Positions 641 through 24,660 of a stretch of 64,000 bases of DNA are shown in pieces (positions within the stretch are counted from its first letter, which is position 1; the number at the start of each line of letters is the position of its first letter). Position numbers and translations under genes: made by a program. The notes under the pieces were generated by a model, which worked only from the letters and a program-made list of their open reading frames with translations, did no database searches and was not told the origin of the DNA. Origin of the DNA: Chitinophagaceae bacterium (GTDB taxonomy: Bacteria > Bacteroidota > Bacteroidia > Chitinophagales > Chitinophagaceae); the NCBI GenBank assembly GCA_043788995.1, contig JAYWII010000121.1, forward strand, positions 15,361-79,360, in the 5' to 3' direction.

Positions 641-1969
641 TTAATTCCGTTCTAATTTTAGTTTACCAACAATTAATGAACCTACTTTTTTACCATGCTC
701 ATTGCTTACTAAGCAGCTGGGATGAAAATGGATGCCTCCGTAAAAACGGGCCCAGTTATTTTCTTCTGCTGCCTGGCGAAATGAAGTGAATGAACGATTG
801 GCGATGCCAAACTCCAGTTCACTGGTATCGGTGTAAGCAAAATTATCACCATACATTTTTGTTAATGCTTCTGCTGCTGCTGCACTTACGGTACTGTGTC
901 CGCAGGTATATTCTGGAAATGGCGGCGTTTGCAAATAAGGTCTCCATTCCGGATCAATGTATTTGTTGATCACTGTTTCAGGACGAGCTGTATTGCTGCG
1001 GAATTTTTCATCCCAGCATTGAATAAATGCGTCAAACATCGCAATACCGGTAATTGTGTATGCAGCTACTGTTTTCCTGAAATTGGCTTTTGCCTTTTGT
1101 GATGCAATGCCTACTATGTTCATCCAGTGTCCCGGAGGTGAAAATTTTTTTGTTACAAACATCACATGGCCAGCCACATTCAGTTTTCCACCCAGGTCAT
1201 CCCAAAATTCAGCTATGTGTTTTTGTTCATCGGTCAAACTATCTACTGCATTTTTTACGGCCATCACCTGCTTATAATAATCACTGTTTTTATTAGTGAT
1301 ATCAAATTTAAAAGGTCTTGGCATCATAAATTGATTGGCACTATCCATTACTAATGTTCTTATCTCGTTCCAATGTGGTTCCAGCGCACTGGTATAAGCT
1401 GGCGGTGTAGGAACCCAACGGCCCGGACTATCATTCACGGTGTACCTGGGAGCGCTTCTTGTTTGAGCATAATTATCCTTTTTGCTCCATGCCAAGATCA
1501 CCTTTGAAATGGTATCAGCATAAGCAACCGAATGCTCAAACATTGCACTTGGCATATCAGAATCTTTTGCTGCTTTTTTCAAGCTGTCCACATAATCCTG
1601 CATGCTTCCCTCCGGAAACGTAACGGCTTCTCCCACTTTGCAAAATGAAAGCAGTGCTGCAAACTCATAATCTATTTTTTGAGTAGTATCAGGCTTAGGC
1701 ATTGCTGTTAACCCTTTGATCTGGCCTGCTAAAGAATTGTACTCATTGGGATAGCCACCGGCTATGCATTCATAAGCAGCAATATTAGCATACGCATAAT
1801 TCCTGGAAGCCACGATGGGAGCAAAGCCTACATGCTTTACCACTTCATTCAATTCTTTCACTGTTTTAGAATAAGCGAAAGCATCTTCAAAATAGGTTTG
1901 TTTAACCGGCTCGTTTTTACAACCGGAGAGTAGTAGCAATACCGCTATGAATGCAGATAAGATTTTCAT
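641..1969 (-). CDS. Vanadium-dependent haloperoxidase-like / PAP2 superfamily lipoprotein
   Basis: Lipobox LLSGC; K-x6-RP (KFRSNTARP), PPFPEYTCGHS and ARFYGGIHF motifs. Confidence 0.85.
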   Translation of the reverse strand: MKILSAFIAVLLLLSGCKNEPVKQTYFEDAFAYSKTVKELNEVVKHVGFAPIVASRNYAYANIAAYECIAGGYPNEYNSLAGQIKGLTAMPKPDTTQKIDYEFAALLSFCKVGEAVTFPEGSMQDYVDSLKKAAKDSDMPSAMFEHSVAYADTISKVILAWSKKDNYAQTRSAPRYTVNDSPGRWVPTPPAYTSALEPHWNEIRTLVMDSANQFMMPRPFKFDITNKNSDYYKQVMAVKNAVDSLTDEQKHIAEFWDDLGGKLNVAGHVMFVTKKFSPPGHWMNIVGIASQKAKANFRKTVAAYTITGIAMFDAFIQCWDEKFRSNTARPETVINKYIDPEWRPYLQTPPFPEYTCGHSTVSAAAAEALTKMYGDNFAYTDTSELEFGIANRSFTSFRQAAEENNWARFYGGIHFHPSCLVSNEHGKKVGSLIVGKLKLERN

Positions 1970-2127
1970 AAAAAATAAGTAAATAATCAGCGATGGAACA
2001 ATGGTTCACAAAGCTTTTGGTTAGCATTAACTTTAAAAGTATTTCCAAATATGATGACAATATTGTACAACACAATACTGTAGTAATGTTCTTGCTGATT
2101 GGAATTAAACTTTAAAAGTAGTTAAAC

Positions 2128-2685
2128 TTAAGCTGCATCCGGTGGCTGCTCTACAGTAGTGAAGAAAAGAGTTTTTTCGAATACGGAGTTTACCAAAACA
2201 TAATTATTTGTGAGTAGTTTACTATCACTATTAAGGGACAATACTGCCAGCTCTTCATATTCACTTAATACTTTCTGAAAAGATTTGCTTTCGCTGCCAG
2301 ATTTCTTTTTACTGTTATCCTGCTGAAAGTCATGTGCTGCCTGGGCGTAGTCGTTTCTTGACTCTTCAATTTTCATTTTTGCATGGTGTGGTATACACAG
2401 CATTTCAAGAGAGTCATTGTAAATACGGCTCTTTACATATTTGTATTGGATACCGTCAATTTCCACTTCACCGTCAATACGCTGAAAAGTTTCGTTGTTA
2501 GTATAATAAGGAAGATTGGTGGGTTGTTTAATGGAAATCAGATCGGATTCATTGTATCCTTTGTCATCCAGCGCCAGCTCTAATACAACGTCAGAGCGGC
2601 TTGCCATGTAATTATATACCAGCTGATACCCTGCAATGTTGAAGGTGAAAATACCGAGCATTAATATGGCTACGAGTTTTCTCAT
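2128..2685 (-). CDS. Hypothetical protein with N-terminal hydrophobic helix and C-terminal Pro-Pro tail
   Basis: 185-aa ORF with LCIPHH and terminal EQPPDAA; -7-like TACATTGCA at 2706-2698. Confidence 0.7.
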   Translation of the reverse strand: MRKLVAILMLGIFTFNIAGYQLVYNYMASRSDVVLELALDDKGYNESDLISIKQPTNLPYYTNNETFQRIDGEVEIDGIQYKYVKSRIYNDSLEMLCIPHHAKMKIEESRNDYAQAAHDFQQDNSKKKSGSESKSFQKVLSEYEELAVLSLNSDSKLLTNNYVLVNSVFEKTLFFTTVEQPPDAA

Positions 2686-2851
2686 TTGTTAGTGGGTTGC
2701 AATGTAGGAGATTTTTTTGAATTGAGTGGACTGTGCAGTTATTTTTTTGTTGAAAAAAAATCGATGCCGGGAAAGCGGGAAGCCGGGAATTATTATTTTT
2801 TATCTCATTCCCCTTCCTGATTACTTTCCATCAAGAATAGACTTTCCAAAA

Positions 2852-4894
2852 TCACTTTACGATAAAAGTTTTCTTCTCCACCCCAATCCCTTTCAGCGTA
2901 AGGCTTTTCCATTGTTTTGGCATAGTTGATTTTATTTGGGTGATACCGGTGGGTGTAATTTCCAATCCGCCAAAACCATTGAGCACCGACTGTAATATAC
3001 CGCCTGCCCCAGTGGCAAAATATGGGTTAGTGCCCCCCTTGGTTTCTGCCAGCACATTAAACGGTGGCAGGAAGTTAGGTACATACGCATCCTTAAAAAA
3101 GTGCCATGCTTTATCCTGTTCACCAATTCTTGCATAGAGCAAAGTGAAGATGGCCTGGGTCATAGCCGGCGTTCCTTCATCGGGAACTCTTGCAGAATAG
3201 TAATCCAGGTCCTTCTTTATTTGCCTGGGATCCGTAATTTCTTTCAATGGGTAGCTTAATAAATTCACGTCTGCCTGCTTAATACCCTCTCCATTGTAGG
3301 TGGCATGTTCTTTTGTAACACCATCCGCCATTTTCAAAACAGGAATATTGGCAGCTACATTCATCCAGTCGGCATCAGGTACTATGCCTAATAATTTTGC
3401 AGCATCGGTTGCATATTTTAAATTGGCTTTTGCAGCGGCGTTTGTAAAAGCATTATTGTCTACATTCTCCGCCCACTCATCTGCAGCCACTACATTTTTT
3501 ATATCGTATTGCCCTGGGCCATTTCTTTCTACCCGGCTTGCCCAAAAATCTGCAGTAGCCTTTAATATCGGCCAACCTTTTTCTCTCAGCCAGTTCTTAT
3601 CCTGTGTTACGCAATAATAATTCCATGCTGCCAGTGCAACATCTGCTGTAATATGATGTTCGAAGGGGCCACTCAATGCCCACACGGGAGTTTCCTCCGC
3701 ACCGGAGCCTGCACTCTCCCAGGGGTACATCGCACCTTTATATCCTTTTCCAAAAGCATTGCGTTTGGCTGCTTCTAATCTTTCAAAACGATATTCAATA
3801 ATGCCCTTTGCTATTTCCGGACGCAATTGCAAAATGGATGGAAACATCCACAACTCGGTATCCCAAAACACATGACCATTATAACCCAGTCCGCTTAACC
3901 CCATAGGAGAAGGGCTGTTGGAAGCTCCTTCTCTTACAAAGGAGTACAGATGATAGATCATGCTGTGTACATCCTGCTGGCTTTGTGGATCGCCTTCAAT
4001 TACGATGTCGCTCTTCCACATTTCGTCCCAGGCTTTGTTATGCATTTCTACCAGCCTGTCTCTGCCCTGCAGTTTGGCAAAGATGGTAAGGCGCTCTGCT
4101 TCATTCAGCGGATCATCATGATGTGCGGAAGTAATGGATGAACCTACAATGGAATAACGATAACTCTCACCCGCATTTATTTTTTTAGAGAACTTCACCA
4201 GGTGCATATTGTTATCCCACATTTCATGTATCACCCTTGGCTCGTTACCATGTGTTTCACTAAAGATAAAAGCATTGCTTGCACACATCAGCAATTTGCC
4301 TGTTGGACTTTTTGCTGATGAAGTGAGCAGACTAATAGTAGTATGTGGCCTGTCTATTTCATTATAATAATTCTGTACATCTTTTAATGCATCCGGTGCT
4401 TCCATCACGCTGGCACTACCGATAGTAATATTCTTTTTTGCAGTTATGGTAATATCCATAAGCACTGAAAAAGGCAGTTGCCTTAATGCATAATAAGTAT
4501 AGGATACGGTTGCCACATCTTTATAATTAAATGAAGTGGTGAAGTTGGCATGTTGCATATCCAGCGACTGCTGCATGTTGCTCACATCATTGTTGGATAA
4601 TCTTTTCCCATCAATCTCTAAATACATATTCAGCAGGTTAAAGCTTTTTAAAAAATTACTCACCCTGCCACGGCCATACAGGTCGTATGCACCAGCCAGC
4701 ACCACTTCTTTTACTTTAAATGCCTCAGCACTGCTTACGATACCAATTTGCCCATTAGCGACTGTGATTCCGTAATAATTAGAGGGGTCAATTTTAGCGG
4801 CAGTGATCTTCCAGGGATCGGGAGACTGAGCGATTATTATTGATTGAAATGTTATGCAAACGATAGCGGTTAATAAAAGGTATTTCTTTTTCAT
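2852..4894 (-). CDS. Glycoside hydrolase family 65, secreted, probably of the hydrolase (alpha-1,2-glucosidase/kojibiose hydrolase-like) clade
   Basis: Signal peptide; GYNGHVFWDTE, FEHHITADVA, VVAADEWAE, KQAD and FATGAGG motifs. Confidence 0.9.
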   Translation of the reverse strand: MKKKYLLLTAIVCITFQSIIIAQSPDPWKITAAKIDPSNYYGITVANGQIGIVSSAEAFKVKEVVLAGAYDLYGRGRVSNFLKSFNLLNMYLEIDGKRLSNNDVSNMQQSLDMQHANFTTSFNYKDVATVSYTYYALRQLPFSVLMDITITAKKNITIGSASVMEAPDALKDVQNYYNEIDRPHTTISLLTSSAKSPTGKLLMCASNAFIFSETHGNEPRVIHEMWDNNMHLVKFSKKINAGESYRYSIVGSSITSAHHDDPLNEAERLTIFAKLQGRDRLVEMHNKAWDEMWKSDIVIEGDPQSQQDVHSMIYHLYSFVREGASNSPSPMGLSGLGYNGHVFWDTELWMFPSILQLRPEIAKGIIEYRFERLEAAKRNAFGKGYKGAMYPWESAGSGAEETPVWALSGPFEHHITADVALAAWNYYCVTQDKNWLREKGWPILKATADFWASRVERNGPGQYDIKNVVAADEWAENVDNNAFTNAAAKANLKYATDAAKLLGIVPDADWMNVAANIPVLKMADGVTKEHATYNGEGIKQADVNLLSYPLKEITDPRQIKKDLDYYSARVPDEGTPAMTQAIFTLLYARIGEQDKAWHFFKDAYVPNFLPPFNVLAETKGGTNPYFATGAGGILQSVLNGFGGLEITPTGITQIKSTMPKQWKSLTLKGIGVEKKTFIVK

Positions 4895-5007
4895 ATAAGC
4901 GTATGTTTATGGAGGGCTAATTTACAATTATTATTCCCTTAAAACTTATCTTTAGCGAAAATAACTGCTTACCAATTTTTTTTGCCGACGATCATTTTTG
5001 CTTGCTT

Positions 5008-8000
5008 ATGAGAAATTATTTTCTTTTTTCAGTTACACTGCTGTTGCTTATTTCCTGCAATCAAAAGCAGCCCCTTTTTCATGAAGTAAAAAGTGACAAA
5101 AGTGGCATTCATTTCAATAATCAAATTAAAGATGATGATGAACTTAACCCATTGAATTACGAATATATTTATAATGGTGCTGGTGTGGGTATTGGTGATT
5201 TTAATAACGACAGCCTGCCAGATATTTATTTTACTGGTAACCGGGTGGCAAATAAACTATACATCAACAAGGGCAATATGCAATTTGAAGATGTAACAGA
5301 AGCGGCAGGTGTAAATGGAAATGGCAGGTGGTGCAAGGGAATAAGTGTGGTGGACATTAACAATGATGGACTGATGGACCTGTATGTGTGTGCTGCAGTG
5401 TTGGTTAACGACAGAAAAAATTTACTTTACATTAACCAGGGTGCTGATAAAAAAACCGGTATCCCTGTTTTTAAAGAAGCAGCTGAAGCATATGGATTGG
5501 CTGATAGTGCCAGTAACCAAATGGCTGCCTTTTTTGATTATGATAATGATGGTGACCTGGATGTTTATTTACTGATCAATGAACTGGATGCAACTTATCC
5601 AAATGAATTTCGCCCAATACATAAAGATGGAAGCTGGCCCAATACAGATAAACTGCTGCGAAATGACTGGAGTGATAGTTTGAAGCATGCTGTATTTACA
5701 AATGTTTCAAAACAGGCAGGTATTTTAATTGAAGGTTACGGGTTGGGAGTAAATATTGCCGACATCAACAGCGATGGCTGGAAAGATATTTATGTAAGCA
5801 ATGATTATCTCTCCAACAATCTTTTGTACATCAACAATCATGATGGAACGTTTACTGATCATTGTGCAGACTACTTTAAACATACCAGCAAAAATGCAAT
5901 GGGCAATGATATTGCCGACATCAACAATGATGGCCTGGCAGATATCATTGAACTGGATATGGCACCTGCAGATAATTACCGCCAAAAGATGATGATGAAT
6001 GATCTCAGTTATCAAACTTTTCAAAATGCTGCACAGTTTGGATACATGCATCAATACGTTAGAAACTGTTTACAATTGAACCAGGGGCCAAGGGTTTTGG
6101 AAAATGATTCCATTGGTGCGCCGGTATTTAGTGAGATCAGTTATTATGCAGGTATGGCACAAACAGACTGGAGCTGGGCTCCTTTAGCAATAGATGCAGA
6201 TAACAATGGTTACAGGGACCTGATGATCTCGAATGGTTTACCAAAGGATGTTTCTGATTTAGATTTTATTGCTTACAGAAGCAGGGCCACTGCCAATACT
6301 CCAATGAACCAGATGCTGCCACAATTGCCCTCTGTAAAGATCAGTAATTATATTTTTCAAAATAACGGAGACATCAGTTTTATTGATAAAACAAAAGACT
6401 GGGGATGGAACACTCCCACCTTTTCATCCGGTATGGCTTACGCAGATTTTGACAGGGACGGTGATATAGATGTGATAGTGAACAATACCAACATGGAAGC
6501 ATCATTGCTGGAGAATACATTGAATGAAAGCAGGGATAAAGAAAATAATTTTTTACGCATACAACTACAGGGAGATCCACTCAATAAAAATGGACTGGGT
6601 ACAATCATCCGTTTATACTACCAGGGCAAACAACAGTTTTACGAGTGTACACCTTACCGTGGCTATATGTCCAGTGTTGAAAATGTGGCACATTTTGGTG
6701 TTGGCAGCATAACTGTTATTGACTCTATAGTTGCTGTTTGGCCCAATGGGGAAAAACAAGTTCTAAAAAACATCAGCACCAATCAAACAATTAATATCAA
6801 TATAACACAGGCTGGTTCCACTGAAAATTACTCTACCCCGGTTATTGCAACCAATAATTGGTTTACCAATATTACCAACAAAACAGGGATCAGCTTTTTT
6901 TCACATGAGATGGATTTCATTGATTTCGATATTCAAAAAATGCTCCCTCATAAACTAACCCAGTATGGGCCCTCACTTGCTGCCGGTGATGTAAATGGAG
7001 ACGGGCTGGAAGACCTTATTGTTGGAGGTGGTTCTCCTACCTACGCAAGATTATTCTTACAAAAACCTGGTGGTTCTTTTGTCAGCAGTAAACTAATTGA
7101 TTCAACAAAGGAATTTAAATACCAGGATGATGGAGGTATTTGCCTGTTTGATGCAGACAACGACACTGATCTTGATCTGTACATTGCATCAGGCGGTGCT
7201 GAAAATGGACCGGGTTACAAGGCTTATGCAGATCATTTTTATGTTAATGATGGCAAAGGGAATTTTAAATTGAACAGTACTGCAATGGCAGGTAACTATA
7301 CAGCTAAAAGCTGTGTAAAAGCTGCCGACTATGATCATGATGGAGACCTTGACCTATTTATCGGTGGCCGGGTTTTCCCAGGTAATTATCCTCAAGCTGT
7401 CAGCAGCATCATTTTACAAAATGATACCAAAGATGGAAAAATAAAATTCACGAATGTTACTAAACAGGTGGCACCTGCATTGCAAAATATCGGGCTGGTT
7501 TGTGATGCCATTTGGAGTGATGCAGACAACGATGGAAATATTGACCTGGTCATTTCAGGTGAATGGATGCCCATTACTATTTTAAAAAACGTAAATGGAA
7601 AATTTACAAAAACTGAAACTAAATTATTGAATGAAACCGGCTGGTGGAACAGCATTACTGCAGCAGATATAGATAATGATGGCGACATGGATTATGTTGC
7701 CGGTAATTGCGGCATGAATGGATATTTAAAACCATCAGCATCCTTCCCGGTAAAAGTTTTTGGAAAAGACTTTGATAATAATGGAAGTTTTGATGCAGTC
7801 TACAGCACCTGGCTGCCATCTGCAATGAACGGCGAATTAAAAGAATATCCAGTAGCCAGGCGGGATGATTTTATCAAAGAGATGACTGTGATGAAAGAAA
7901 GATTTCCTAATTACGCAGCATATGCCGGGAAAGAAATGAAAGATATTTTTACAGAAGCGGAACTAAAAGGAGCGCTGCAATTATCTGTAAATAATTTTAA

Positions 8001-8562: not shown

Positions 8563-8565
8563 TCT

Positions 8566-9903: not shown

Positions 9904-9998
9904 CATAAAGTGAAAGTGTTTTTTTAAACCCTTTACTTTGCAAACAAATTCTTTAATAAATATTATAAATACTGTAACTCAAATAAAAATAATTTGAT

Positions 9999-10928: not shown

Positions 10929-10936
10929 TAAAGTAA

Positions 10937-14371: not shown

Positions 14372-14372
14372 C

Positions 14373-17693: not shown

Positions 17694-17711
17694 AATTAAT
17701 TAAAAATAGAA

Positions 17712-17737
17712 AAAGGCCATTATAAATAATGGCCTTT
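17712..17737 (-). terminator. Intrinsic terminator/attenuator after susD
   Basis: AAAGGCCATTA/TAATGGCCTTT stem followed by a T-run on the - strand. Confidence 0.7.
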
Positions 17738-17774
17738 AACAAAATTACAGTGATTTAATAACTATCGAATTAAA

Positions 17775-19460
17775 TTAATAACCTGCGTTCTGTTGCAAAT
17801 TAGGATTAGAAGATAATGCAATTAAAGGAATTGGGAAAACACATCTTGTTCCATTAGACTTACTTGGTCTTTCACCAACTGGATCATTGAATTTCTCAAA
17901 ACGGATCAAGTCATTTCTTCTCCATGCTTCTAAATACAACTCTCTTCCTCTTTCAGCCAATAATGTAGTTAAACTTACTTCACCCAAGTTTGCTACATTA
18001 CGCTTAGCACGTATTCCGTTTACAATAGCCAGAGGTGTTTCAGCATCTGTACCGCCTCTTAAAATTGCTTCTGCTTTCATTAAACGAATATCAGAAAAAC
18101 GGAAGAACACAAATTCATTTTTAGTTCCCCAGCCGCCGCCATTACTTTCTTTTGGATCAAGCGGATATTTATTCGTCCTGATACCTTTTGATTCAGTTGA
18201 AAAGAACAAACTTACCTCTGGCGTAAAGATCAATGGATTACCTGCTCTGTCTTTTAAATCATTAACCGGTAAACCTATATATTTCTTACTCTTGTAAGAT
18301 GGCCCTTTTTGCTGACCAACTAAAAAACCTGCAGGACGACCAACAAGACGTATATATGAGGTTGTTTTATAGGTAGGGTTCCTTGGATCTTTATCTATAT
18401 AAATACTTGAGTCTGTAGTAGGAACAGGGTTATCTGCCGTCCCGTTCCAAACTAACGTTCCTCGTACTGTATCTCTTTTACGTACATCCGCATCATCAAA
18501 ACTATTATAAAAATCTGCCAATGTAGTAAACCCATTCCAGCCATCAGGTGTCATGCTGTAGTGATTACCCATACAGGTAGCCCATACCATATTGTTACCG
18601 CCATCTCCGTTAAAACGTGTAAAAATATTTTCTGTAGATTTAGTACCATTCTCCCAGGTAAAATTATCCCAGTAATAATCTGCCACTTTCAAGTCAGCAT
18701 TTGCAGCGATCGCATTGCTTAACTCAATTACCTTATTCATATCTGCTGCAGCAAAAGTGAAAGGACCAGCCGGACTTGCAGGATCTTGCTTGTAAACAGA
18801 TTTATTTAAATAGCATTTAGCCAACAGAAACTGAGCAGCTTCTTTTGTTGCCACACTCCTTAAAGCATGTGTATAAGCAGGTAATTTTGGAATTACTGAT
18901 TCCAGTTCGCTAATGATAAAATCAATTGCCTCTGCACGGCTATACACATCTGGTATTACCTCAATTGCTGCTGTAGCTGGCCGATGCTGTAACTGGCCAA
19001 ACATATCACAAACCAAATAGGAGAAATAAGCTCTTAAAAAAGTTGCTTCCGCCTTTGTTTTTTCATCTGCGGAACTTGCTTCTGCCAGCAAAGTAGTTTG
19101 AAATAAGGCTCCATTCAAGCCATTCCAGGTATCATTGATCTGGTTGTGAGCGCCATCCCAGGTATGAAGATGCAATTTACGCCAGGTTCCAAAATCATCC
19201 CAGTCAGTACCACGGGTTGGTCCCATGATCTCGTCTGTTGTGTGTTCCTGCATGGCATAAGTATTACCCTGGCCATATAATTGATTTAACTGTGTATAAA
19301 CAGTTTTCAGATCAGAGGGCTGAGGTGCTCCACCAGACTCAATTATGGCTTCTCCATTAGGAGCCTTTAGTTTTGTATCCAGTTTGGTACAGGATGAAAC
19401 CGTCAGTACCACAGCCAAAGCTGAAACTGAAAGAATGTTATTCATAATAATTTTTTTCAT
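17775..19460 (-). CDS. susD: SusD/RagB family outer-membrane lipoprotein
   Basis: Lipobox TVSSC; LMKAEA and ERGRELYLEAWRRNDLIRF motifs; directly downstream of susC. Confidence 0.92.
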   Translation of the reverse strand: MKKIIMNNILSVSALAVVLTVSSCTKLDTKLKAPNGEAIIESGGAPQPSDLKTVYTQLNQLYGQGNTYAMQEHTTDEIMGPTRGTDWDDFGTWRKLHLHTWDGAHNQINDTWNGLNGALFQTTLLAEASSADEKTKAEATFLRAYFSYLVCDMFGQLQHRPATAAIEVIPDVYSRAEAIDFIISELESVIPKLPAYTHALRSVATKEAAQFLLAKCYLNKSVYKQDPASPAGPFTFAAADMNKVIELSNAIAANADLKVADYYWDNFTWENGTKSTENIFTRFNGDGGNNMVWATCMGNHYSMTPDGWNGFTTLADFYNSFDDADVRKRDTVRGTLVWNGTADNPVPTTDSSIYIDKDPRNPTYKTTSYIRLVGRPAGFLVGQQKGPSYKSKKYIGLPVNDLKDRAGNPLIFTPEVSLFFSTESKGIRTNKYPLDPKESNGGGWGTKNEFVFFRFSDIRLMKAEAILRGGTDAETPLAIVNGIRAKRNVANLGEVSLTTLLAERGRELYLEAWRRNDLIRFEKFNDPVGERPSKSNGTRCVFPIPLIALSSNPNLQQNAGY

Positions 19461-19485
19461 ACAAATGTTTTTTTAAATGAATTAA

Positions 19486-22400
19486 TTAAAATCCAAGATT
19501 AATACCAAGTGTGAATACTCTTGCCTTTGGATAACCGGTATAATCAAATCCACGTGAAGGGTAACCATTAATATTCTTATCAACATTCACTTCCGGATCT
19601 AATCCTGAATAGTTGGTGAAAAGAGCTAAGTTTTGTCCAGAGATAAATGCAGAGAAGGTTTTTACAAAACCACTCTTCACCGGGAATGCATAACTAACAT
19701 TTGCATTAGATATTCTCAGGAAATCTCCTTTTTCCAAAAAACGACTGGAAACACTGCCTGGATTGATTCCGTTTTCCGGGCTGTTGGCCGTTCTGTAATC
19801 AATATTATGAGCTGTAAGAATTGACCCTTTTAACAACAAGGCATTGGCTGTATTGTTGTACACATAAAAGCCAGTGGAACCATTAATAAATATACTGGCA
19901 CTTAACCTGCCAATAGTGAAATTATTAGTTAAACCTGCAAGGAAAGTAGGCAATGCACTTCCTAAAAGCTGGTCATTACTACCGTCTGCATATCTTGCAT
20001 ATCCATTTCCATTAAAGCCAAGGAATACGGGCATTTTCCATGTAAACAATGAGTAACCATCTGTAATTGTCTGAGCATAAGCACCACTCAACCCTTGTCC
20101 ACTAACTCCACCTGTATTTACAATTTGATTCAAGTCCCTAACCTCATTATGTTGGAACGTCATATTGTAGTTAATATCCCAGCTAAAGTTTTTCGTTTTG
20201 ATCAATTTATAATTCAAACTAAATTCCCATCCTGTGTTTAACACAAATCCTGGCAAATTGCTAAAATAATTTGGGCCGGCTCCAAATCCACCTGGAGTTG
20301 GGCCAAAGAAAAGCAGGTTTTTTCTTTCTGTATGATAATAATCAACAGTACCGGAAAGCCTGTTATTTAACAAAGTAAAGTCGAGACCAACCCCTGTAGT
20401 GGTTGCCTCTTCCCATTTTAAATTTTTATTTCCCTGATGAACAAACGATGTTCTCGATTGCTCTCCTGGATTAGCATAAGTTTGATTCAGATCAATAGCG
20501 TCATAAGAACCAATCCCGTCCTGGCTACCCAATTTACCCCAGTTGCCTCTGATACTGAAATCACTAAATACTTTTCCTATTGTGCTGGCAGCAAACCCCT
20601 CTTTAGCCAATCTCCATTTAGCTGCAAAAGCCGGGAAGGTGCCATACTTATTATCCTTACCAAATTTAGAAGAACCATCCACCCTAACGGTGGCTGTTAA
20701 CAGATATTTATCTGCAATGGTATAGTTTACACGACCAAAATAAGACTGTAATTCAGATTGATCATTACCAGGTACAAAATCAAAATAGTTTTTAAACTGC
20801 CCATAATCTTTTCCAAAAACATCGGTAGGTGCTACTACTGGTGTATTAAGCCCCCAACCAACTGCACCTTTGTAATCGTATTCCGTTTTTTGCCATGAAT
20901 AACCTGCCACAGCGTCTAACACGCTGTTTCCAAAGGAAGTAGCGTAAGCGAGTGTATGTTCAACAAGTATTGATTTCAAATCAACATTTTGTTTTACACC
21001 TCTTCCATTTCCTGTAATACCATTCTTTAAATCTTTGAACCATACAGTATTAGTTCCACTAAAAGCACTGCCTAAACGGGGATCTGCAAAAGACAATCTT
21101 TCGCTGGTAGATTTATCATAACCCAATGTAGCTTTATATGTAAGTCCCTTAACAATCTCAAAAGATCCACTGATGCTTGTTAATAAACGGTTGACATTGT
21201 CCTTATCATCAAAATATGCTATCATTTGGGCGGGGTTCCTGTTATTTCCATCTTCAAAATAAGAACCATCAGGATTGAAAACCGGGTTAGTTGGGTTGAA
21301 AGAAATGGCAGCTCCTACCAAGCTACCCTGGTAACCTGCATTATTAGTTAACGGAGGATAAGAGTTTTTTACATTTGAGTAAGTAAAGTTTCCATCAATT
21401 TTTAACCTGTCGTTAATGAATTTTTGAGTAAAATTCAAACGTCCAGTCAATCTCTTCAAACTGCTGTTTTTAACAATACCCTGCTGGTCATCATAGGAAC
21501 CACTAACTCGTACTGCAGTACTCTTGCGGCTGATTCCCCAACCCAGATTATAATTTTGACCAACACCTGTTCTGAATATCTGGTCCTGCCAGTCTGTATT
21601 CGCACCCCTGTCCACAGTAGCTTGTGCAGCAGCGGCAGCTTCAGGACTGTTGCCCACACCAATACTGGTTTCTTTTACAGAATTCAAAAAATCCTGGGTA
21701 TTTAACAGGTCATAGCGGCTGGCAACTTTTGACATATTGGTGGCAGCACTGAAAGTGAAACTTCCCCTGGCACTTTTACCTGTTTTAGTAGTGATCAGGA
21801 TTACACCATTTGCACCACGTGAACCGTAGATAGCTGCAGAAGATGCATCTTTTAAAATACTGATACTTTCAATATCATTTGGATTTATAAATGTTAGTGG
21901 ATTCTTGGGTGTAGAGCTACCCTCCACACCGCTTGCTGTAGCTGAAGTACCGCCACCACTGATAGGAACACCATCCACTACATATAGTGGCTCCTGGTTA
22001 CCCCTGATAGATGCACTACCTCTAATGGTTATTGTAGCAGCAGCACCTGGCTCACCGCTGGATGGCGTAACACTTACACCTGGCGTACGTCCCTGGATCA
22101 ACTGTTCGGGAGTAGATATCTGGCCCTTGTTAAAGTCCTTTGTAGATAAAGCAGCCACAGAACCTGTAGCATCTTTTATCTTCTTGGTGCCATAACCTAC
22201 CACCACTACTTCATTTAAGTTACCTACGCTGGTTTCCATTTCGGTGTTAACCGAAGATCTTCCGCTTAAGGTAATTTCTTGAGTAGTAAAGCCAGCTCCA
22301 GTAAACCTTAGTACTGCATCGGTAGCAACATTGTTTAGGGTGTATATCCCTTCGTTGTTGGTAGAAGTGGCATTTTTAGTGCCTTTTACTGTAACAGTAA

Positions 22401-22527
22401 CTCCGGGGACAACCTCCCCTTTTTTGTCTGTTACCTTTCCGGTAACTGTCTGGGCCTGCATACAGAAAGCAAATCCCAGAAAAGCCAGCAATAGCATGGC
22501 CCTCTTTCTCATGTTAGCAAGAATCAT
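19486..22527 (-). CDS. susC: SusC/RagA family TonB-dependent transporter
   Basis: EVVVVGYG, LKDASSAAIYGSRGANGVILITTK, C-terminal GINLGF. Confidence 0.95.
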   Translation of the reverse strand: MILANMRKRAMLLLAFLGFAFCMQAQTVTGKVTDKKGEVVPGVTVTVKGTKNATSTNNEGIYTLNNVATDAVLRFTGAGFTTQEITLSGRSSVNTEMETSVGNLNEVVVVGYGTKKIKDATGSVAALSTKDFNKGQISTPEQLIQGRTPGVSVTPSSGEPGAAATITIRGSASIRGNQEPLYVVDGVPISGGGTSATASGVEGSSTPKNPLTFINPNDIESISILKDASSAAIYGSRGANGVILITTKTGKSARGSFTFSAATNMSKVASRYDLLNTQDFLNSVKETSIGVGNSPEAAAAAQATVDRGANTDWQDQIFRTGVGQNYNLGWGISRKSTAVRVSGSYDDQQGIVKNSSLKRLTGRLNFTQKFINDRLKIDGNFTYSNVKNSYPPLTNNAGYQGSLVGAAISFNPTNPVFNPDGSYFEDGNNRNPAQMIAYFDDKDNVNRLLTSISGSFEIVKGLTYKATLGYDKSTSERLSFADPRLGSAFSGTNTVWFKDLKNGITGNGRGVKQNVDLKSILVEHTLAYATSFGNSVLDAVAGYSWQKTEYDYKGAVGWGLNTPVVAPTDVFGKDYGQFKNYFDFVPGNDQSELQSYFGRVNYTIADKYLLTATVRVDGSSKFGKDNKYGTFPAFAAKWRLAKEGFAASTIGKVFSDFSIRGNWGKLGSQDGIGSYDAIDLNQTYANPGEQSRTSFVHQGNKNLKWEEATTTGVGLDFTLLNNRLSGTVDYYHTERKNLLFFGPTPGGFGAGPNYFSNLPGFVLNTGWEFSLNYKLIKTKNFSWDINYNMTFQHNEVRDLNQIVNTGGVSGQGLSGAYAQTITDGYSLFTWKMPVFLGFNGNGYARYADGSNDQLLGSALPTFLAGLTNNFTIGRLSASIFINGSTGFYVYNNTANALLLKGSILTAHNIDYRTANSPENGINPGSVSSRFLEKGDFLRISNANVSYAFPVKSGFVKTFSAFISGQNLALFTNYSGLDPEVNVDKNINGYPSRGFDYTGYPKARVFTLGINLGF

Positions 22528-22620
22528 AGTAGTTTTAGTTTATGTTTGGTAATGAAAGAAAACTCAATTTTTGTCAATCGTTTATTATGGCTGTAGTAGT
22601 TGCAATCGTCTAAATCAGCT

Positions 22621-22637
22621 TAATTTTGCGAAAATTA
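22621..22637. promoter_or_regulatory. Near-palindromic overlapping -7 promoter boxes for divergent susC and lacI
   Basis: TAATTTTGCGAAAATTA reads TAATTTTG on + (perfect TAnnTTTG) and TAATTTTC on -. Confidence 0.55.
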
Positions 22638-22682
22638 GTTAACATTTCTTTATAAAAAAAATTCGTTTACAAGATATTTTTC

Positions 22683-22719
22683 CGCAATCGTTTGCGAAAT
22701 TGTTTGCGAAATTGTTTGC
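22683..22719. promoter_or_regulatory. LacI-family operator cluster
   Basis: CGCAATCGTTTGCG (GCAAnCGnTTGC type) followed by 2.5 tandem copies of GTTTGCGAAATT; half-sites at 22575-22583 and 22602-22611. Confidence 0.7.
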
Positions 22720-22753
22720 TGTGTATATTTTACACTTAAATATTATAAAACCC

Positions 22754-23731
22754 ATGAATAATACCACTTTAAAAAAAATATCAGAAGCCCTCGGGTTAAG
22801 TATTTCAACCGTATCCAGGGCGCTTAAAAACCATCCGGATATTTCTGAAAAAACCAAGCAACGGGTTACAGAATTAGCCAATGCGCTGGATTATGAACCT
22901 AACACCAACGCCATTCAACTCCGGACCAACAAGCGCAACATTTTTGGATTGATTGTTCCAACCATCTCTAATTTTTTCAATGATTCGTTTATTGCCTCGG
23001 TGGAAGAAGAAAGCCGCAAAAATAATTATTCACTGATCATACTGCAATCCGGCGATGACCCAGCCATTGAATTGGAGAACTTAAAGCTATGCAGGCAAAA
23101 CAGGATAAGTGGTTTATTTATCAGTCTCACATCGCAAACCGGCAATATGGATCCTTTCAATAAATTACAGGACCAGGACATACCAATCGTTTTTTTTGAC
23201 AGGGTTCCGGAGGAGAGCAATTGTAATAAAGTATGTGTTGCTGATACCGCCTCCGCAACTATAGCTGCTAATACGATATTGGAAAAGAAAAAGAAAAAAG
23301 TACTGGCTTTATATGGAAACAGTCATTTGTCTATTACTAAAAAACGAAAGGATGCCTTTACAAAAGCAACTGACAAAAAAATAAAGGTGCTTAGCCACCA
23401 TGCCAATAATAGTTTGGAAGCAGAAGAAATAACCACTAAAATGCTAAAGGGAAAACCAGATACTGTTTTTTGCATGAGTGATGAACTATTAACCGGGGCC
23501 ATGAAAGCCATTCAAAAAGCAAACCTGAAAATACCAGATGATATTGCGGTAATAACGATCAGTAATGGATATATTCCAAAATTGTATTACCCGGAAATCA
23601 CTTATGTGGAAACCAGCGGTTTTAAATTAGGGAAACTTGCTTTTTCCAGTATGATGGCATGCATAGCCGGAAGTACATTTATACAGGAGCTTACCATAGA
23701 ATCATTACTAGTGCAGGGTGGCTCTATATAA
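22754..23731 (+). CDS. LacI family transcriptional regulator
   Basis: TLKKISEALGLSISTVSRAL HTH plus periplasmic-binding-like domain; ATG at 22754 preferred to TTG at 22700. Confidence 0.93.
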   Translation: MNNTTLKKISEALGLSISTVSRALKNHPDISEKTKQRVTELANALDYEPNTNAIQLRTNKRNIFGLIVPTISNFFNDSFIASVEEESRKNNYSLIILQSGDDPAIELENLKLCRQNRISGLFISLTSQTGNMDPFNKLQDQDIPIVFFDRVPEESNCNKVCVADTASATIAANTILEKKKKKVLALYGNSHLSITKKRKDAFTKATDKKIKVLSHHANNSLEAEEITTKMLKGKPDTVFCMSDELLTGAMKAIQKANLKIPDDIAVITISNGYIPKLYYPEITYVETSGFKLGKLAFSSMMACIAGSTFIQELTIESLLVQGGSI

Positions 23732-24649: not shown

Positions 24650-24660
24650 AAATTTCTTTT

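What the first reader, a model, noticed from the sequence alone, without database searches (positions are those of the whole stretch)
641..23731. PUL built from haloperoxidase-like and ASPIC/UnbV lipoproteins rather than glycanases
The LacI-susC-susD locus has only one glycosidase (GH65). It has three giant FG-GAP/ASPIC-UnbV lipoproteins and two VHPO-like PAP2 lipoproteins, about 13 kb of coding capacity of unknown function, and one VHPO is coupled 3 bp behind an ASPIC gene. I recall such associations recurring in Bacteroidota but know of no functional account. Hypotheses: VHPO-like enzymes act as surface sugar-phosphate phosphatases or oxidative halogenases, and the beta-propeller proteins act as Ca-dependent glycan-binding scaffolds or cryptic lyases.
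Basis: partly seen in the sequence, partly recalled or inferred. Interest (0 to 1): 0.72.

Follow-up and report, generated by a model that had tools for sequence, protein, structure and literature searches.

The report
Sugar-uptake locus with propeller-iodoperoxidase module
A freshwater/soil Bacteroidota bacterium joins a sugar importer and one alpha-1,2-glucosidase to giant calcium-type propeller lipoproteins and relatives of a proven iodide-oxidising vanadium enzyme. The gene partnership is real and widespread, but its job has never been worked out.

Summary
Window 641-23731 holds LacI, SusC, SusD, three 1,100-1,190-aa FG-GAP/UnbV_ASPIC lipoproteins, two paralogous PAP2-type lipoproteins and one CAZyme, a GH65 kojibiose hydrolase.

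The linkage is not random.
- All six VHPO paralogues of this genome lie within 10 kb of an ASPIC gene.
- 43 of 50 long homologous loci carry the pair, usually as SusC-SusD-ASPIC-VHPO. Gemmatimonadota loci are among them.

The three propellers belong to three ancient orthogroups. A membrane-anchored START+GyrI-like ligand-binding protein is a further conserved member. The whole architecture recurs in four related genomes, always with the LacI gene. GH65, GH37 trehalase or GH13, with sugar and glycerol transporters, recur beside the module in distant orders.

The propellers match only CRTAC1 and no known enzyme.

Most likely this is a LacI-controlled uptake system for small alpha-glucosides. Its propeller-haloperoxidase module would carry out halide/peroxide chemistry on the captured substrate. 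That mechanism is inferred, not shown. The system is listed as "unknown" in PUL inventories and was seen repeatedly in this scan.

The parts
3..548 (-). 5' part (182 codons) of a 392-aa OMP-like gene (u359) that runs off the window. It is syntenic with the locus in related genomes.
   Evidence: It is 37% identical to the gene at the same position in L004-L006, and the neighbouring u321 is also conserved. No Pfam family.
641..1969 (-). VHPO_B: lipoprotein of the Zg-VIPO1-type vanadium haloperoxidase family. Cys replaces Ser in the SGH motif.
   Evidence: 42% identity to VHPO_A. (4CIT E 5.3e-121). (45.8% identity to Zg-VIPO1). (lipobox LSGC). Orthologues at the same position in L004 and L006.
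2128..2685 (-). 185-aa membrane-anchored protein with no family. It is conserved between GH65 and VHPO_B.
   Evidence: no family. (orthologues in L004-L006). (71% paralogue at C47 beside another SusC).
2852..4894 (-). [quoted passage not shown]
   Evidence: NF053734 equivalog, 1197 bits against a cut-off of 800. (FjGH65A 7FE3 E 5.7e-275; WAEN and ETKGG glutamates conserved).. It is the only gene of this type in the genome.
4856..4867 (.). Degenerate LacI-operator-like palindrome GCAAACGATAGC inside the first GH65 codons.
   Evidence: This is weak on its own, because there are 81 one-mismatch sites genome-wide. Perfect copies sit at the ASPIC1 5' end in L004 and L006, and one sits upstream of ASPIC1 in L017.
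5002..8562 (+). ASPIC1: clade-B (VHPO-partner type) CRTAC1-like lipoprotein, probable ATG at 5008. It consists of a propeller, an UnbV domain, a second propeller and a C-terminal beta-sandwich.
   Evidence: FG-GAP_3 x7, UnbV_ASPIC. (AF2 pLDDT 93, pTM 0.92). (CRTAC1 9ETN, TMt 0.74). (tree). (more than 8000 homologues; JGI name 'enediyne biosynthesis protein E4').
8566..9903 (+). VHPO_A: Zg-VIPO1-type vanadium haloperoxidase lipoprotein, 3 bp behind ASPIC1.
   Evidence: 4CIT E 3.8e-126. (46.7% identity). (Lys, Arg-Pro, Ser-Gly-His, Arg and His invariant in six paralogues). (PAP2 28.5 bits).
9999..10928 (+). Membrane-anchored two-domain START/SRPBCC + GyrI-like small-molecule-binding protein.
   Evidence: AF2 pLDDT 93. 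(GyrI-like ligand binders CTR107, EcmrR, CtaZ, BrlR and SbmC, TMt 0.7-0.78). (262 homologues, some named effector-binding/GyrI). (hhalign to the GyrI-like gene of L076-L078). (same position in L004-L007 and L017).
10937..14371 (-). ASPIC2: clade-A2 CRTAC1-like lipoprotein, probable start at 14323. It is the last gene of the susC operon.
   Evidence: (lipobox LFSC). (orthogroup with L004-7, L017, L054 and L078).
14373..17693 (-). ASPIC3: clade-A1 CRTAC1-like lipoprotein, first gene after susD. There is a 1-bp gap to ASPIC2.
   Evidence: FG-GAP_3 x10, UnbV_ASPIC. (orthogroup with L054, L077 and the Cytophagales and Gemmatimonadota members).
17712..17737 (-). 11-bp hairpin followed by a T-run between susD and ASPIC3. 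It is a terminator- or attenuator-like element.
17775..19460 (-). SusD-family lipoprotein.
   Evidence: SusD_RagB, SusD-like_3..
19486..22527 (-). SusC-type TonB-dependent transporter.
   Evidence: CarbopepD_reg_2, Plug, TonB_dep_Rec_b-barrel.
22684..22719 (+). LacI-type operator GCAATCGTTTGC followed by two direct copies of GAAATTGTTTGC, 35-70 nt before the lacI ATG in the susC-lacI divergent region.
   Evidence: It is one of only two perfect matches in the 6.27-Mb genome. It is conserved upstream of the orthologous lacI in L081-L084.
22700..23731 (+). LacI-family repressor, probable ATG at 22754.
   Evidence: LacI HTH plus Peripla_BP.. Orthologues at 54-57% identity are divergent from susC in four related genomes.

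Best explanation
The locus is a LacI-controlled, Sus-type outer-membrane uptake system for small alpha-glucosides of the kojibiose (alpha-1,2) type. It is assembled from two ancient, separately conserved modules plus one arm.

(1) susC-susD-ASPIC(A1)-ASPIC(A2).

(2) ASPIC(B)-VHPO-START/GyrI-like membrane protein.

(3) An arm with the periplasmic GH65 kojibiose hydrolase, a small membrane protein and a second VHPO.

Shown here:
- the gene identities;
- lipoprotein signals on all propellers and VHPOs;
- intact vanadate/phosphate-site residues;
- the very strong, phylum-wide gene coupling of propeller and VHPO;
- three ancient propeller orthogroups;
- recurrent linkage to exo-acting alpha-glucosidases (GH65, GH37, GH13) and to sugar and glycerol transporters;
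- a conserved LacI gene and operator.

Inferred mechanism:
- The CRTAC1-like, Ca2+-type propeller lipoproteins hold the substrate at the outer membrane.
- The Zg-VIPO1-type enzyme uses H2O2 and a halide (iodide is the best guess) to make hypohalous acid next to the substrate. This oxidises or halogenates a non-sugar or reducing part of the substrate.
- The GyrI/START protein binds the hydrophobic product or aglycone.
- The glucoside part passes through SusC and is split to glucose by GH65.
- LacI releases the operators when the sugar effector appears.
For: - Identities.
- Catalytic Lys, Arg-Pro, (Ser/Cys)-Gly-His, Arg and His are invariant in six paralogues.
- Own genome: 6 of 6 VHPO genes lie within 10 kb of one of 18 UnbV_ASPIC genes, and 4 lie directly behind one.
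- 43 of 50 long loci around VHPO homologues contain ASPIC. The usual order is SusC-SusD-ASPIC-VHPO.
- Phylum sample: 35 of 37 VHPO genomes have ASPIC against 51 of 164 others (Fisher p 3e-13). At least 26 of 43 close VHPO hits lie within 12 kb of an ASPIC domain.
- The same pair is found in 62-65% GC Gemmatimonadota contigs.
- The propellers fall into three ancient orthogroups.
- A metagenomic contig has an ASPIC gene overlapping by 4 bp an ORF that fuses VHPO to a GH20 chitobiase.
- GH65, GH37 or GH13 with MFS or SSF and GlpF/GlpK recur beside the module in several orders.
- The genome's only GH65 of this type is in this locus.
- VHPOs 72% identical to Zg-VIPO1 sit in ASPIC-VHPO-GyrI arrays.
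- The GyrI/START fold is confirmed.
- Redox neighbours occur in some loci: tandem GMC oxidoreductases and multihaem cytochromes.
- LacI and its operator are conserved.
- In G. forsetii the homologous TBDR GFO_1029 was detected in glucose- and laminarin-grown cells (PMC4069401).
- Arenibacter C-21 iodine uptake needs glucose, O2 and Ca2+, and its genome has at least 5 VIPO homologues (PMC5064120).
Against: - No experiment links any ASPIC protein to a substrate or to a VHPO.
- The propeller model matches no enzyme or lectin of known ligand.
- No H2O2-producing gene lies in this locus.
- Iodide is scarce in fresh water and soil.
- The PAP2 site residues are shared with acid phosphatases, so sequence alone cannot prove haloperoxidase activity at 46% identity.
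- The post-Cys residues lack the acidic surface-export signal, so the lipoproteins may face the periplasm rather than the outside.
- The second LacI site in this genome is degenerate.
- About half of ASPIC genes have no VHPO nearby, so the propellers also work without it.
- SusCD systems with three giant lipoproteins look oversized for disaccharides.
Confidence: 0.4

Rival explanations
1. Phosphatase reading. The VHPO-like lipoproteins act in vivo as vanadate-free PAP2 acid phosphatases. They would strip phosphate from phosphorylated glycans or glycerol-phosphate polymers, for example teichoic-acid-like material carrying kojibiosyl or glucosyl groups. The propellers would bind or cleave the polymer, and glucose, glycerol and phosphate would be taken up.
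For: - PAP2 superfamily hit.
- Apo-VHPOs are known to have phosphatase activity (established knowledge).
- The locus abuts DUF47-PiT phosphate transporter genes and a Pho island (earlier notes).
- GlpF/GlpK follow the module in Cytophagales loci.
- Alpha-1,2-glucosyl (kojibiosyl) groups occur on lipoteichoic acids (my own knowledge).
- An earlier agent left the phosphatase-or-halogenase question open for a related Opitutaceae operon.
Against: - The proteins are full-length homologues of an enzyme with demonstrated iodoperoxidase activity.
- The Asp of the third phosphatase motif SRxxxxxHxxxD is absent: the sequences read SRLYGGIHYRSA and ARFYGGIHFHPS.
- The regulator is a sugar-type LacI, not a Pho box arrangement.
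- PiT adjacency is not seen in the other loci.
- Redox partners (GMC oxidoreductases, cytochromes) rather than phosphodiesterases accompany the module elsewhere.
Confidence: 0.15
2. The propellers are the missing glycan-cleaving enzymes, a new Ca2+-dependent lyase or hydrolase family with three specialised members. The VHPO would be only an auxiliary, for example removing H2O2 or oxidising iodide as self-protection during feeding.
For: - Three ancient non-redundant orthogroups.
- Beta-propeller polysaccharide lyases exist (PL11, PL22, PL24/25, PL42; my own knowledge).
- All accompanying GHs are exo-acting, so an endo-activity is missing.
- Conserved non-calcium residues are present: DWSW, PxRGxxSS, GWW.
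- ASPIC genes also occur without a VHPO.
Against: - There is no structural match to any lyase or hydrolase.
- The same propeller clade sits beside very different GH sets (GH65, GH37, GH13, GH3, GH2, GH20). That argues against specificity for one glycosidic bond.
- Tight translational coupling with the VHPO (3-bp gap here, 4-bp overlap in L091) suggests a joint action rather than a loose auxiliary role.
Confidence: 0.2
3. Halogen or peroxide handling with no role in glycan feeding. The module would oxidise iodide at the envelope for iodine uptake or accumulation, or for defence against competitors. GH65 would merely supply glucose to a peroxide-generating oxidase.
For: - Arenibacter C-21 physiology: iodine uptake depends on glucose, O2 and Ca2+, and the proposed model is an oxidase plus a haloperoxidase (PMC5064120).
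- Zobellia vIPO3 is induced on brown algae as a stress response (PMC9296495).
- GMC oxidoreductases follow the VHPO in L025 and L036.
- An UnbV-type protein (E4) belongs to the enediyne cassette, whose products include iodinated polyynes. The title of Gui et al. 2024 was seen; the content is from my memory.
Against: - The module is embedded in SusCD operons in most loci.
- It is fused or adjacent to glycosidases.
- It is controlled here by a sugar-type repressor.
- There is no halide transporter or oxidase in this locus.
Confidence: 0.15
4. Chance juxtaposition. GH65, LacI and SusCD form an ordinary small PUL, and the ASPIC and VHPO genes are unrelated neighbours.
For: The intergenic gaps in the GH65 arm are fairly long (158-166 bp). 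The second operator in this genome is weak.
Against: - The whole architecture is conserved in L004, L005, L006 and L017 at 55-78% protein identity.
- GH65 sits next to a VHPO in four further loci from other families.
- The genome-wide and phylum-wide statistics argue against chance.
Confidence: 0.03

Closest known systems
Zg-VIPO1, vanadium-dependent iodoperoxidase of Zobellia galactanivorans (PDB 4CIT/4USZ; Fournier et al. 2014, cited in PMC5064120)
   Same: Full-length homology: E 4e-126 and 5e-121, 46-47% identity. The length is the same and the Lys/Arg/Ser-Gly-His/Arg/His site is conserved. VHPOs 72% identical to Zg-VIPO1 in other Flavobacteriaceae lie in the same ASPIC-VHPO-GyrI array.
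   Different: The two window proteins belong to other subfamilies (A-type and B-type). VHPO_B has Cys for the site Ser. Activity, metal and halide preference are untested. The host is a freshwater/soil bacterium rather than marine and alga-associated. The 2014 paper could not be read here.
FjDexUL of Flavobacterium johnsoniae with kojibiose hydrolase FjGH65A (PMC10316084)
   Same: The GH65 is an equivalog of FjGH65A (7FE3 E 5.7e-275). It has a type-I signal peptide, as does the periplasmic FjGH65A, and it is part of a SusCD locus.
   Different: There is no GH66, GH31 or GH97 dextran-degrading enzyme and no SusR or SusE. Instead the locus has LacI, three propellers, two VHPOs and a GyrI-like protein. 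Branched dextran is therefore unlikely to be the substrate.
Classical Sus-like polysaccharide utilisation loci, and catalogued PULs with these genes: G. forsetii PUL GFO_1027 onward ('unknown'), Dokdonia PUL 62, and 'trehalose' PULs 103/116 (Kappelmann et al., PMC6298971)
   Same: There is a SusC/SusD pair with lipoprotein genes, a regulator and a periplasmic exo-glycosidase. The G. forsetii locus has TBDR-SusD-FG-GAP x2-VHPO-effector-domain protein, and its TBDR is expressed on glucose and laminarin.
   Different: No surface endo-glycanase or recognised SGBP is present. The lipoprotein cargo is a redox-type enzyme plus CRTAC1-like propellers. The inventories list such loci as 'unknown' or name them after the adjacent GH.
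CRTAC1/ASPIC (murine CRTAC1, PDB 9ETN)
   Same: The N-terminal FG-GAP propeller plus UnbV domain superposes with TMt 0.74. It is the only sequence hit in the PDB. The Ca2+-type DxDxDG loops are conserved.
   Different: The bacterial proteins are lipoproteins about twice as long, with a second propeller and a C-terminal beta-sandwich. Sequence identity is 18%. The animal protein is an extracellular matrix/receptor ligand with no enzyme partner.
Enediyne PKS cassette protein E4 (UnbV)
   Same: It shares the FG-GAP + UnbV_ASPIC architecture, and JGI names ASPIC1 homologues 'enediyne biosynthesis protein E4'. E3/E4/E5 are of unknown function (PMC9992847). The cassette is linked to iodinated intermediates (title of Gui et al. 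2024 seen; content from memory). START-type ligand-binding proteins occur in both contexts (DynU16).
   Different: There is no PKSE, thioesterase, E3 or E5 in or near the locus. E4 proteins are about half as long. Any role of E4 in iodination is not established.

Membership tests
Vanadium-dependent haloperoxidase (Zg-VIPO1 type) | Full-length sequence homology to a biochemically characterised member | tested here: met
   VHPO_A matches 4CIT at E 3.8e-126 and 46.7% identity. VHPO_B matches at E 5.3e-121 and 45.8% identity.
Vanadium-dependent haloperoxidase (Zg-VIPO1 type) | Vanadate-site residues: Lys, Arg(-Pro), Ser-Gly-His, Arg and the covalent His | tested here: met
   K321, R328-P329, G356-H357, R407 and H413 are invariant in six paralogues. 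The Ser is present in VHPO_A and is replaced by Cys in VHPO_B. The same residues define PAP2 phosphatases, so this test alone does not discriminate.
Vanadium-dependent haloperoxidase (Zg-VIPO1 type) | Vanadate-dependent oxidation of halide by H2O2, and halide specificity | not testable with these tools
   This needs enzyme assays, such as thymol blue or triiodide for iodide and monochlorodimedone for Br/Cl.
PAP2 acid phosphatase | Three motifs KxxxxxxRP, PSGH and SRxxxxxHxxxD, including the final Asp | tested here: not met
   Motifs 1 and 2 are present. Motif 3 lacks the Asp: SRLYGGIHYRSA and ARFYGGIHFHPS. The Pfam PAP2 score for VHPO_A is 28.5 bits, barely over the 27.2 cut-off, and VHPO_B has no hit.
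Sus-like polysaccharide utilisation locus | Adjacent susC/susD pair with at least one CAZyme and a regulator in a conserved cluster | tested here: met
   SusC, SusD, GH65 and LacI are present. The architecture is conserved in L004-L006 and L017, with LacI divergent from SusC.
Sus-like polysaccharide utilisation locus | Co-regulation of all genes by the substrate | tested here: inconclusive
   The operator is conserved at lacI/susC in five genomes and at the ASPIC1 5' end in L004, L006 and L017. In this genome the second site has one mismatch, and there are 81 such sites genome-wide.
GH65 kojibiose hydrolase (EC 3.2.1.216) | Equivalog-level match, conserved catalytic glutamates and a secretion signal (unlike the cytoplasmic phosphorylases) | tested here: met
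   NF053734 scores 1197 bits against a cut-off of 800. 7FE3 matches at E 5.7e-275 with WAEN (Glu472 of FjGH65A) and ETKGG conserved. The signal peptide is MKKKYLLLTAIVCITFQSIIIAQ.
CRTAC1 / UnbV_ASPIC propeller family | FG-GAP propeller followed by the UnbV_ASPIC domain, with a CRTAC1-like fold | tested here: met
   PF13517 and PF07593 are above cut-off in all three proteins. The AF2 model has pLDDT 93 and superposes on 9ETN with TMt 0.74.
Enediyne PKS cassette (E3/E4/E5/PKSE/TE) | E4/UnbV encoded together with PKSE, the thioesterase, E3 and E5 | tested here: not met
   No PKS, thioesterase or RnfD-like gene lies in window 1-28 kb or in the 15 kb to its left. Only the E4-like architecture and the KO-based name are shared.
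GyrI-like / START small-molecule-binding proteins (309-aa gene) | Helix-grip or GyrI fold with a ligand cavity | tested here: met
   The AF2 model has pLDDT 93. Foldseek finds CTR107, EcmrR-C, CtaZ, BrlR and SbmC at TMt 0.64-0.78. Pfam matches are only sub-threshold. The ligand is unknown.

The most novel reading that the evidence does not exclude
The UnbV/CRTAC1-like propeller, the vanadium iodoperoxidase and the START/GyrI-like membrane protein would together form an undescribed envelope machine for iodine-dependent oxidative chemistry. The propeller would be the obligate partner that positions a substrate for enzyme-generated hypoiodous acid, or channels it. This would be the same kind of task that the unexplained E4/UnbV protein performs in the cryptic iodination step of enediyne biosynthesis. 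Bacteroidota and Gemmatimonadota would use it as a non-hydrolytic, halide-catalysed front end of SusCD nutrient uptake, roughly as lytic oxidases serve other bacteria.
Probability: 0.15. Interest if true: 0.85.

Novelty: new variant of a known kind. Interest (0 to 1): 0.62.

Why it matters
UnbV_ASPIC genes occur in 43% of a 201-genome sample of Bacteroidota, and close relatives of the iodoperoxidase occur in 18%. The two are tightly coupled and usually sit inside SusCD operons. Even so, no paper assigns the module a role, and PUL inventories list it as 'unknown'.

Working out the role would have several consequences.
- It would explain a large block of dark coding capacity in environmental carbon-cycling bacteria.
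- It could reveal a halide/peroxide-based route of substrate processing at the cell envelope, and a microbial contribution to iodine cycling in soil and fresh water.
- It would give a first functional handle on the CRTAC1/UnbV protein family, which includes a human cartilage and nerve protein and an unexplained enediyne-pathway protein.

This locus is a good entry point because it has a defined sugar enzyme (kojibiose hydrolase) and a LacI repressor whose effector can be screened.

Tried and rejected
- Papers not held: Fournier 2014, Amachi 2007 and Gui 2024. Statements about their content rest on citing papers or on my memory, and are marked as such.
- ASPIC-VHPO fusion, claimed by an earlier agent: not found. 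It was absent among 59 genome hits (open frames 436-542 aa), the top 120 ASPIC1 homologues and the top 150 VHPO representatives. The long hits were a tandem VHPO-VHPO protein (Planctomycetota) and a single VHPO-GH20 fusion.
- Propeller as a known enzyme: Foldseek against the PDB gave only CRTAC1 and low-TM multi-propeller scaffolds such as DDB1, SF3B3 and CPSF160.
- Surface or periplasmic orientation: the residues after the lipobox Cys are K/Q/N-rich and rarely acidic in VHPO and ASPIC, and only moderately acidic in SusD, so orientation stays open.
- Second LacI operator in this genome: the site at 4856 has one mismatch and there are 81 such sites genome-wide, so it is not significant alone.
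- The sigma-70 promoter scan is uninformative for Bacteroidota and gave fewer hits than the shuffles.
- No Pfam or NCBIfam family for the 185-aa protein or for the two OMP-like genes u321 and u359.
- Direct BLASTP between the 309-aa protein and the Flavobacteriaceae GyrI-like gene found nothing. Only profile comparison and the fold link them.
- My first guess of 55-60% identity to Zg-VIPO1 was wrong. The measured values are 46-47%.

Full report
**1. What is in the sequence.**

ORF listing and family scans give the following map, in window coordinates.

| Coordinates | Strand | Size | Identity |
|---|---|---|---|
| 641-1969 | - | 442 aa | VHPO_B |
| 2128-2685 | - | 185 aa | no family |
| 2852-4894 | - | 680 aa | GH65 |
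| 5002-8562 | + | 1186 aa | FG-GAP_3 x7 + UnbV_ASPIC (ASPIC1) |
| 8566-9903 | + | 445 aa | PAP2 (VHPO_A) |
| 9999-10928 | + | 309 aa | see section 2 |
| 10937-14371 | - | 1144 aa | ASPIC2 |
| 14373-17693 | - | 1106 aa | ASPIC3 |
| 17775-19460 | - | | SusD |
| 19486-22527 | - | | SusC |
| 22700-23731 | + | | LacI |

- VHPO_B has no Pfam hit, but it is 42% identical to VHPO_A over its whole length.
- All three propellers, both VHPOs and SusD begin with a signal peptide that ends in a lipobox Cys.
- GH65 has a type-I signal peptide.
- The 185-aa and 309-aa proteins each have one N-terminal hydrophobic helix.
- The spacer between ASPIC1 and VHPO_A is 3 bp. The spacer between ASPIC3 and ASPIC2 is 1 bp.

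**2. What the parts are.**

*GH65.*
- It reaches the NCBIfam equivalog 'kojibiose hydrolase' (1197 bits, cut-off 800).
- It aligns end to end with FjGH65A (7FE3, E 5.7e-275), including the Glu of WAEN and the Glu of (S/A)E(C/T)KGG.
- FjGH65A hydrolyses alpha-1,2-glucosidic bonds of kojibiose and kojioligosaccharides, and is predicted to be periplasmic (PMC10316084).
- It is the only gene of this type in the genome.

*The VHPO-like proteins.*
- Both match the vanadium iodoperoxidase of Zobellia galactanivorans (4CIT/4USZ) at E 3.8e-126 and 5.3e-121.
- Measured identity is 46.7% for VHPO_A and 45.8% for VHPO_B.
- In an alignment of the genome's six paralogues, the Lys, Arg-Pro, Gly-His, Arg and His of the vanadate/phosphate site are invariant.
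- The Ser before Gly-His is Cys in VHPO_B.
- The Asp that ends the third PAP2 phosphatase motif is absent.

*ASPIC1.*
- AlphaFold2 with 76 homologues gives pLDDT 93 and pTM 0.92.
- The model shows an N-terminal propeller, an UnbV beta-domain, a second propeller and a C-terminal beta-sandwich.
- Foldseek against the PDB finds only murine CRTAC1 as a real match (TMt 0.74 over the first ~620 residues). After that come generic multi-propeller scaffolds at TM below 0.3.
- No lyase, hydrolase, oxidase or lectin is matched.
- Conservation is dominated by DxDxDG-type calcium loops. A few other invariant patches exist: DWSW, PxRGxxSS, GWW.

*The 309-aa protein.*
- It folds with pLDDT 93 into a membrane helix, a START/SRPBCC domain and a GyrI-like domain.
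- It resembles ligand-binding GyrI proteins such as CTR107, EcmrR, CtaZ, BrlR and SbmC (TMt 0.64-0.78), and more weakly the di-domain START proteins, including DynU16.
- It has 262 homologues, some of them named effector-binding or GyrI-like.

**3. Is the linkage more than chance?**

*Own genome (6.27 Mb).*
- There are six full-length VHPO paralogues and 18 UnbV_ASPIC genes.
- Every VHPO lies within 10 kb of an ASPIC gene, and four lie directly behind one.
- Four of the five clusters also show a SusC by tblastn; none was detected on the short contig C19.
- With 18 ASPIC genes, a random gene has about a 6% chance of such proximity.
- Ten of the 18 ASPIC genes have no VHPO nearby.

*Loci from other genomes.*
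- A scan of one genome per species with the paralogue alignment returned 80 loci.
- Of the 50 loci with at least 15 kb, 43 carry an ASPIC gene and 30 carry a SusC detectable by BLASTP.
- The dominant order is SusC-SusD-ASPIC-VHPO. A 515-aa FG-GAP protein is present in 17 loci, and in about half of its occurrences it directly follows the VHPO.
- Three loci are from Gemmatimonadota MAGs and have 62-65% GC, so they are native to that phylum.

*Even sample of 201 Bacteroidota genomes.*
- VHPO homologues (E <= 1e-30) occur in 37 genomes (30 of 108 genera). UnbV_ASPIC occurs in 86 genomes.
- 35 of the 37 VHPO genomes also have ASPIC, against 51 of 164 genomes without a VHPO (Fisher p 3e-13).
- At least 26 of 43 close VHPO hits lie within 12 kb of a listed ASPIC domain. 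This is a lower bound, because the ASPIC list was truncated.
- None of the 16 distant VHPO-like hits does.

*Family size and fusions.*
- The VHPO family has 775 representatives (50% identity clusters) at E <= 1e-30.
- One metagenomic contig (L091) shows an ASPIC gene overlapping by 4 bp an ORF in which the VHPO is fused to a CBM-GH20 chitobiase.
- That fusion is a single observation, but it ties the enzyme to glycoside catabolism.
- I did not find any ASPIC-VHPO fusion.

**4. Anatomy of this particular locus.**

A maximum-likelihood tree of 76 propellers has two deep clades.
- Clade B holds ASPIC1 and the VHPO-adjacent propellers of the single-propeller loci.
- Clade A holds two sub-clades. 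One contains ASPIC3 (first gene after susD) and the other contains ASPIC2. Each sub-clade has members from Cytophagales, Flavobacteriaceae and Gemmatimonadota.

The window locus therefore combines two ancient modules:
- susC-susD-ASPIC(A1)-ASPIC(A2);
- ASPIC(B)-VHPO-GyrI-like.

The full arrangement is VHPO_B-185aa-GH65 <> ASPIC1-VHPO_A-309aa >< ASPIC2-ASPIC3-SusD-SusC. It is conserved at 55-78% protein identity in L004 and L006; L005 has it without VHPO_B. In L017 a TreC-like GH13 and a GH3 replace GH65.

The synteny continues leftwards to two OMP-like genes without family. One of them starts at window 548.

**5. Regulation.**

- The LacI orthologue (54-57% identity) is divergent from susC in all four related genomes.
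- Just upstream of lacI, every genome has the palindrome GCAA(A/T)(C/G)G(A/T)TTGC followed by a half-repeat. Here it reads GCAATCGTTTGC at 22684, followed by two copies of GAAATTGTTTGC.
- The pattern GCAAWCGWTTGC occurs only twice in the whole 6.27-Mb genome.
- Perfect copies also lie in the first codons of ASPIC1 in L004 and L006, and a one-mismatch copy lies 94 nt upstream of ASPIC1 in L017.
- In this genome the only candidate in the GH65/ASPIC1 region is a one-mismatch site at 4856, inside the GH65 signal-peptide codons. That is not significant alone.
- An 11-bp hairpin with a T-run lies between susD and ASPIC3. It resembles the attenuators that raise susCD over downstream genes.
- RNA-seq evidence could not be obtained.
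- The only experimental expression datum I found is for the homologous G. forsetii locus. [quoted passage not shown] The gene content of that locus comes from Kappelmann Table S3.

**6. What travels with the module elsewhere.**

De novo clustering of all neighbours shows several recurring sets.
- Exo-acting alpha-glucoside enzymes:
  - GH65 in eight loci from Chitinophagaceae, Saprospiraceae, Cytophagales and Cyclobacteriaceae;
  - GH37 trehalase in five loci;
  - TreC-like GH13 in five loci.
- SLC45-like MFS or SSF transporters.
- In four Cytophagales-type loci, glycerol kinase GlpK (TIGR01311, 735 bits), preceded by the facilitator GlpF in three of them.
- Other loci carry GH3, GH2, GH20 or GH29.
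- Redox proteins appear sporadically: two tandem GMC oxidoreductases directly after the VHPO (L025, L036), multihaem cytochromes (Mucilaginibacter loci), and PSCyt/PSD1/DUF1501 sets.
- Regulators differ from locus to locus: LacI here, NrtR/AraR-like elsewhere, and a probable ECF sigma/anti-sigma pair (by size and position only, not scanned) at C75.

The propeller-VHPO unit therefore behaves as a general accessory module that is plugged into different small-glycoside uptake loci. It does not behave as an enzyme for one linkage.

**7. Literature.**

- Kappelmann et al. list such loci as 'unknown', 'alpha-glucan' or 'trehalose', according to the neighbouring GH.
- Ito et al. report at least five Zg-VIPO1 homologues in the iodine-accumulating Arenibacter C-21. 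Its iodine uptake needs glucose, O2 and Ca2+ and was proposed to involve an oxidase plus a haloperoxidase.
- Brunet et al. saw Zobellia vIPO3 induced on Ascophyllum.
- JGI names ASPIC1 homologues 'enediyne biosynthesis protein E4'.
- The enediyne cassette holds three conserved genes of unknown function (PMC9992847). According to a 2024 paper it yields a diiodotetrayne. I could see only that paper's title, and its content is from my memory.
- No paper in the library discusses ASPIC/UnbV proteins in PULs.

**8. Explanation and rivals.**

*Best reading (confidence 0.4).* This is a LacI-controlled SusCD system for small alpha-1,2-type glucosides. The propeller-VHPO-GyrI module performs halide/peroxide chemistry on the bound substrate. 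The sugar part is imported and split by the periplasmic GH65.

The shown and inferred steps are listed under Best explanation.

Rivals:
- phosphatase function of the PAP2 enzymes (0.15). This is favoured by the nearby PiT and GlpFK genes and disfavoured by the missing motif Asp and the homology to a proven iodoperoxidase;
- the propellers as a new glycan-cleaving family, with the VHPO as an auxiliary (0.2);
- halogen or peroxide handling unrelated to feeding (0.15);
- chance adjacency (0.03).

Whether the lipoproteins face outward or into the periplasm is unresolved.

**9. Novelty.**

- The components are known kinds: Sus-type loci, a characterised GH65 and a characterised VIPO homologue.
- The conserved module and its coupling to SusCD have no functional description. 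I class it as a new variant of a known kind.
- Earlier agents of this scan reported the same theme in at least 19 other genomes. My independent tests agree with most of their claims: the conserved pairing, the GyrI-like member, VHPO present in about half of ASPIC loci, the link to alpha-glucoside genes, and the sugar-type repressor site.
- I could not reproduce the ASPIC-VHPO fusion claim.
- New here:
  - the split of the propellers into three ancient orthogroups, and the composite nature of this locus;
  - the conserved LacI and operator in the Chitinophagaceae version;
  - the GlpF/GlpK association;
  - the ASPIC -> VHPO-GH20 fusion contig.

Noticed in passing
left of the window: own genome contig C121:1-15360 (window begins at C121:15361): A second uptake cluster lies directly upstream. 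It holds DUF3179, three paralogous CMD/AhpD-like 'peroxidase-related' proteins, SusC and SusD, an MFS transporter, a TonB-dependent receptor and a distant 516-aa PAP2/VCPO-like lipoprotein. These are followed by two OMP-like genes without family (u321, u359), which are syntenic with the VHPO_B-GH65 arm in L004-L006.
   Followed up: partly
own genome contigs C56, C75, C47, C19: Four further ASPIC-VHPO clusters lie in the same genome; three of them (C56, C75, C47) also have SusC and SusD. C75 appears to have an ECF sigma/anti-sigma pair and a GMC oxidoreductase nearby (by size and N-terminal sequence; not scanned), and C56 has a small FG-GAP protein between ASPIC and VHPO. With six VHPO and 18 UnbV genes, this genome is the richest in the 201-genome sample.
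   Followed up: partly
L059, L065, L070 (Gemmatimonadota MAGs): SusC-SusD-ASPIC-VHPO-ASPIC-SSF arrays lie on 62-65% GC contigs. SusC/SusD-type pairs carrying this module therefore exist outside Bacteroidota.
   Followed up: partly
L091:2-7092 (ENA metagenome contig): An ASPIC gene overlaps by 4 bp a 1294-aa ORF that fuses a VIPO-type VHPO to a CHB_HEX carbohydrate-binding domain and a GH20 chitobiase. It is a singleton cluster, seen on one contig only.
   Followed up: partly
P0245 cluster (Planctomycetota, 865 aa): A tandem VHPO-VHPO fusion protein is found on six metagenomic or genomic contigs.
   Followed up: no
window 22696-22719: Two exact direct copies of GAAATTGTTTGC immediately follow the LacI palindrome. 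Related genomes have one such half-repeat.
   Followed up: partly
window 5056-5073 and 8626-8643 (first residues after the lipobox Cys): ASPIC1 (C-NQKQPL) and VHPO_A (C-KQKQPL) share the same tether sequence after the lipobox Cys. This may be a common sorting signal or a duplicated leader.
   Followed up: no
window 1970-2127 and 2686-2851: The intergenic gaps in the GH65 arm are 158 and 166 bp, against 20-60 bp in L004 and L006. The second gap contains the G-rich repeat GGGAAAGCGGGAAGCCGGGAA. These may be inserted elements or extra promoters.
   Followed up: no
window 23930-26076: A DUF47 (PhoU-like) gene and a PiT phosphate transporter pair lie directly after lacI. This adjacency is not seen in the related loci examined.
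   Followed up: no
own genome C27:12620-13609 and L086 (second LacI of G002): A 51-52% identical LacI paralogue exists in this genome and, in G002, lies 5 kb to the left of the orthologous locus. Its targets were not examined.
   Followed up: no
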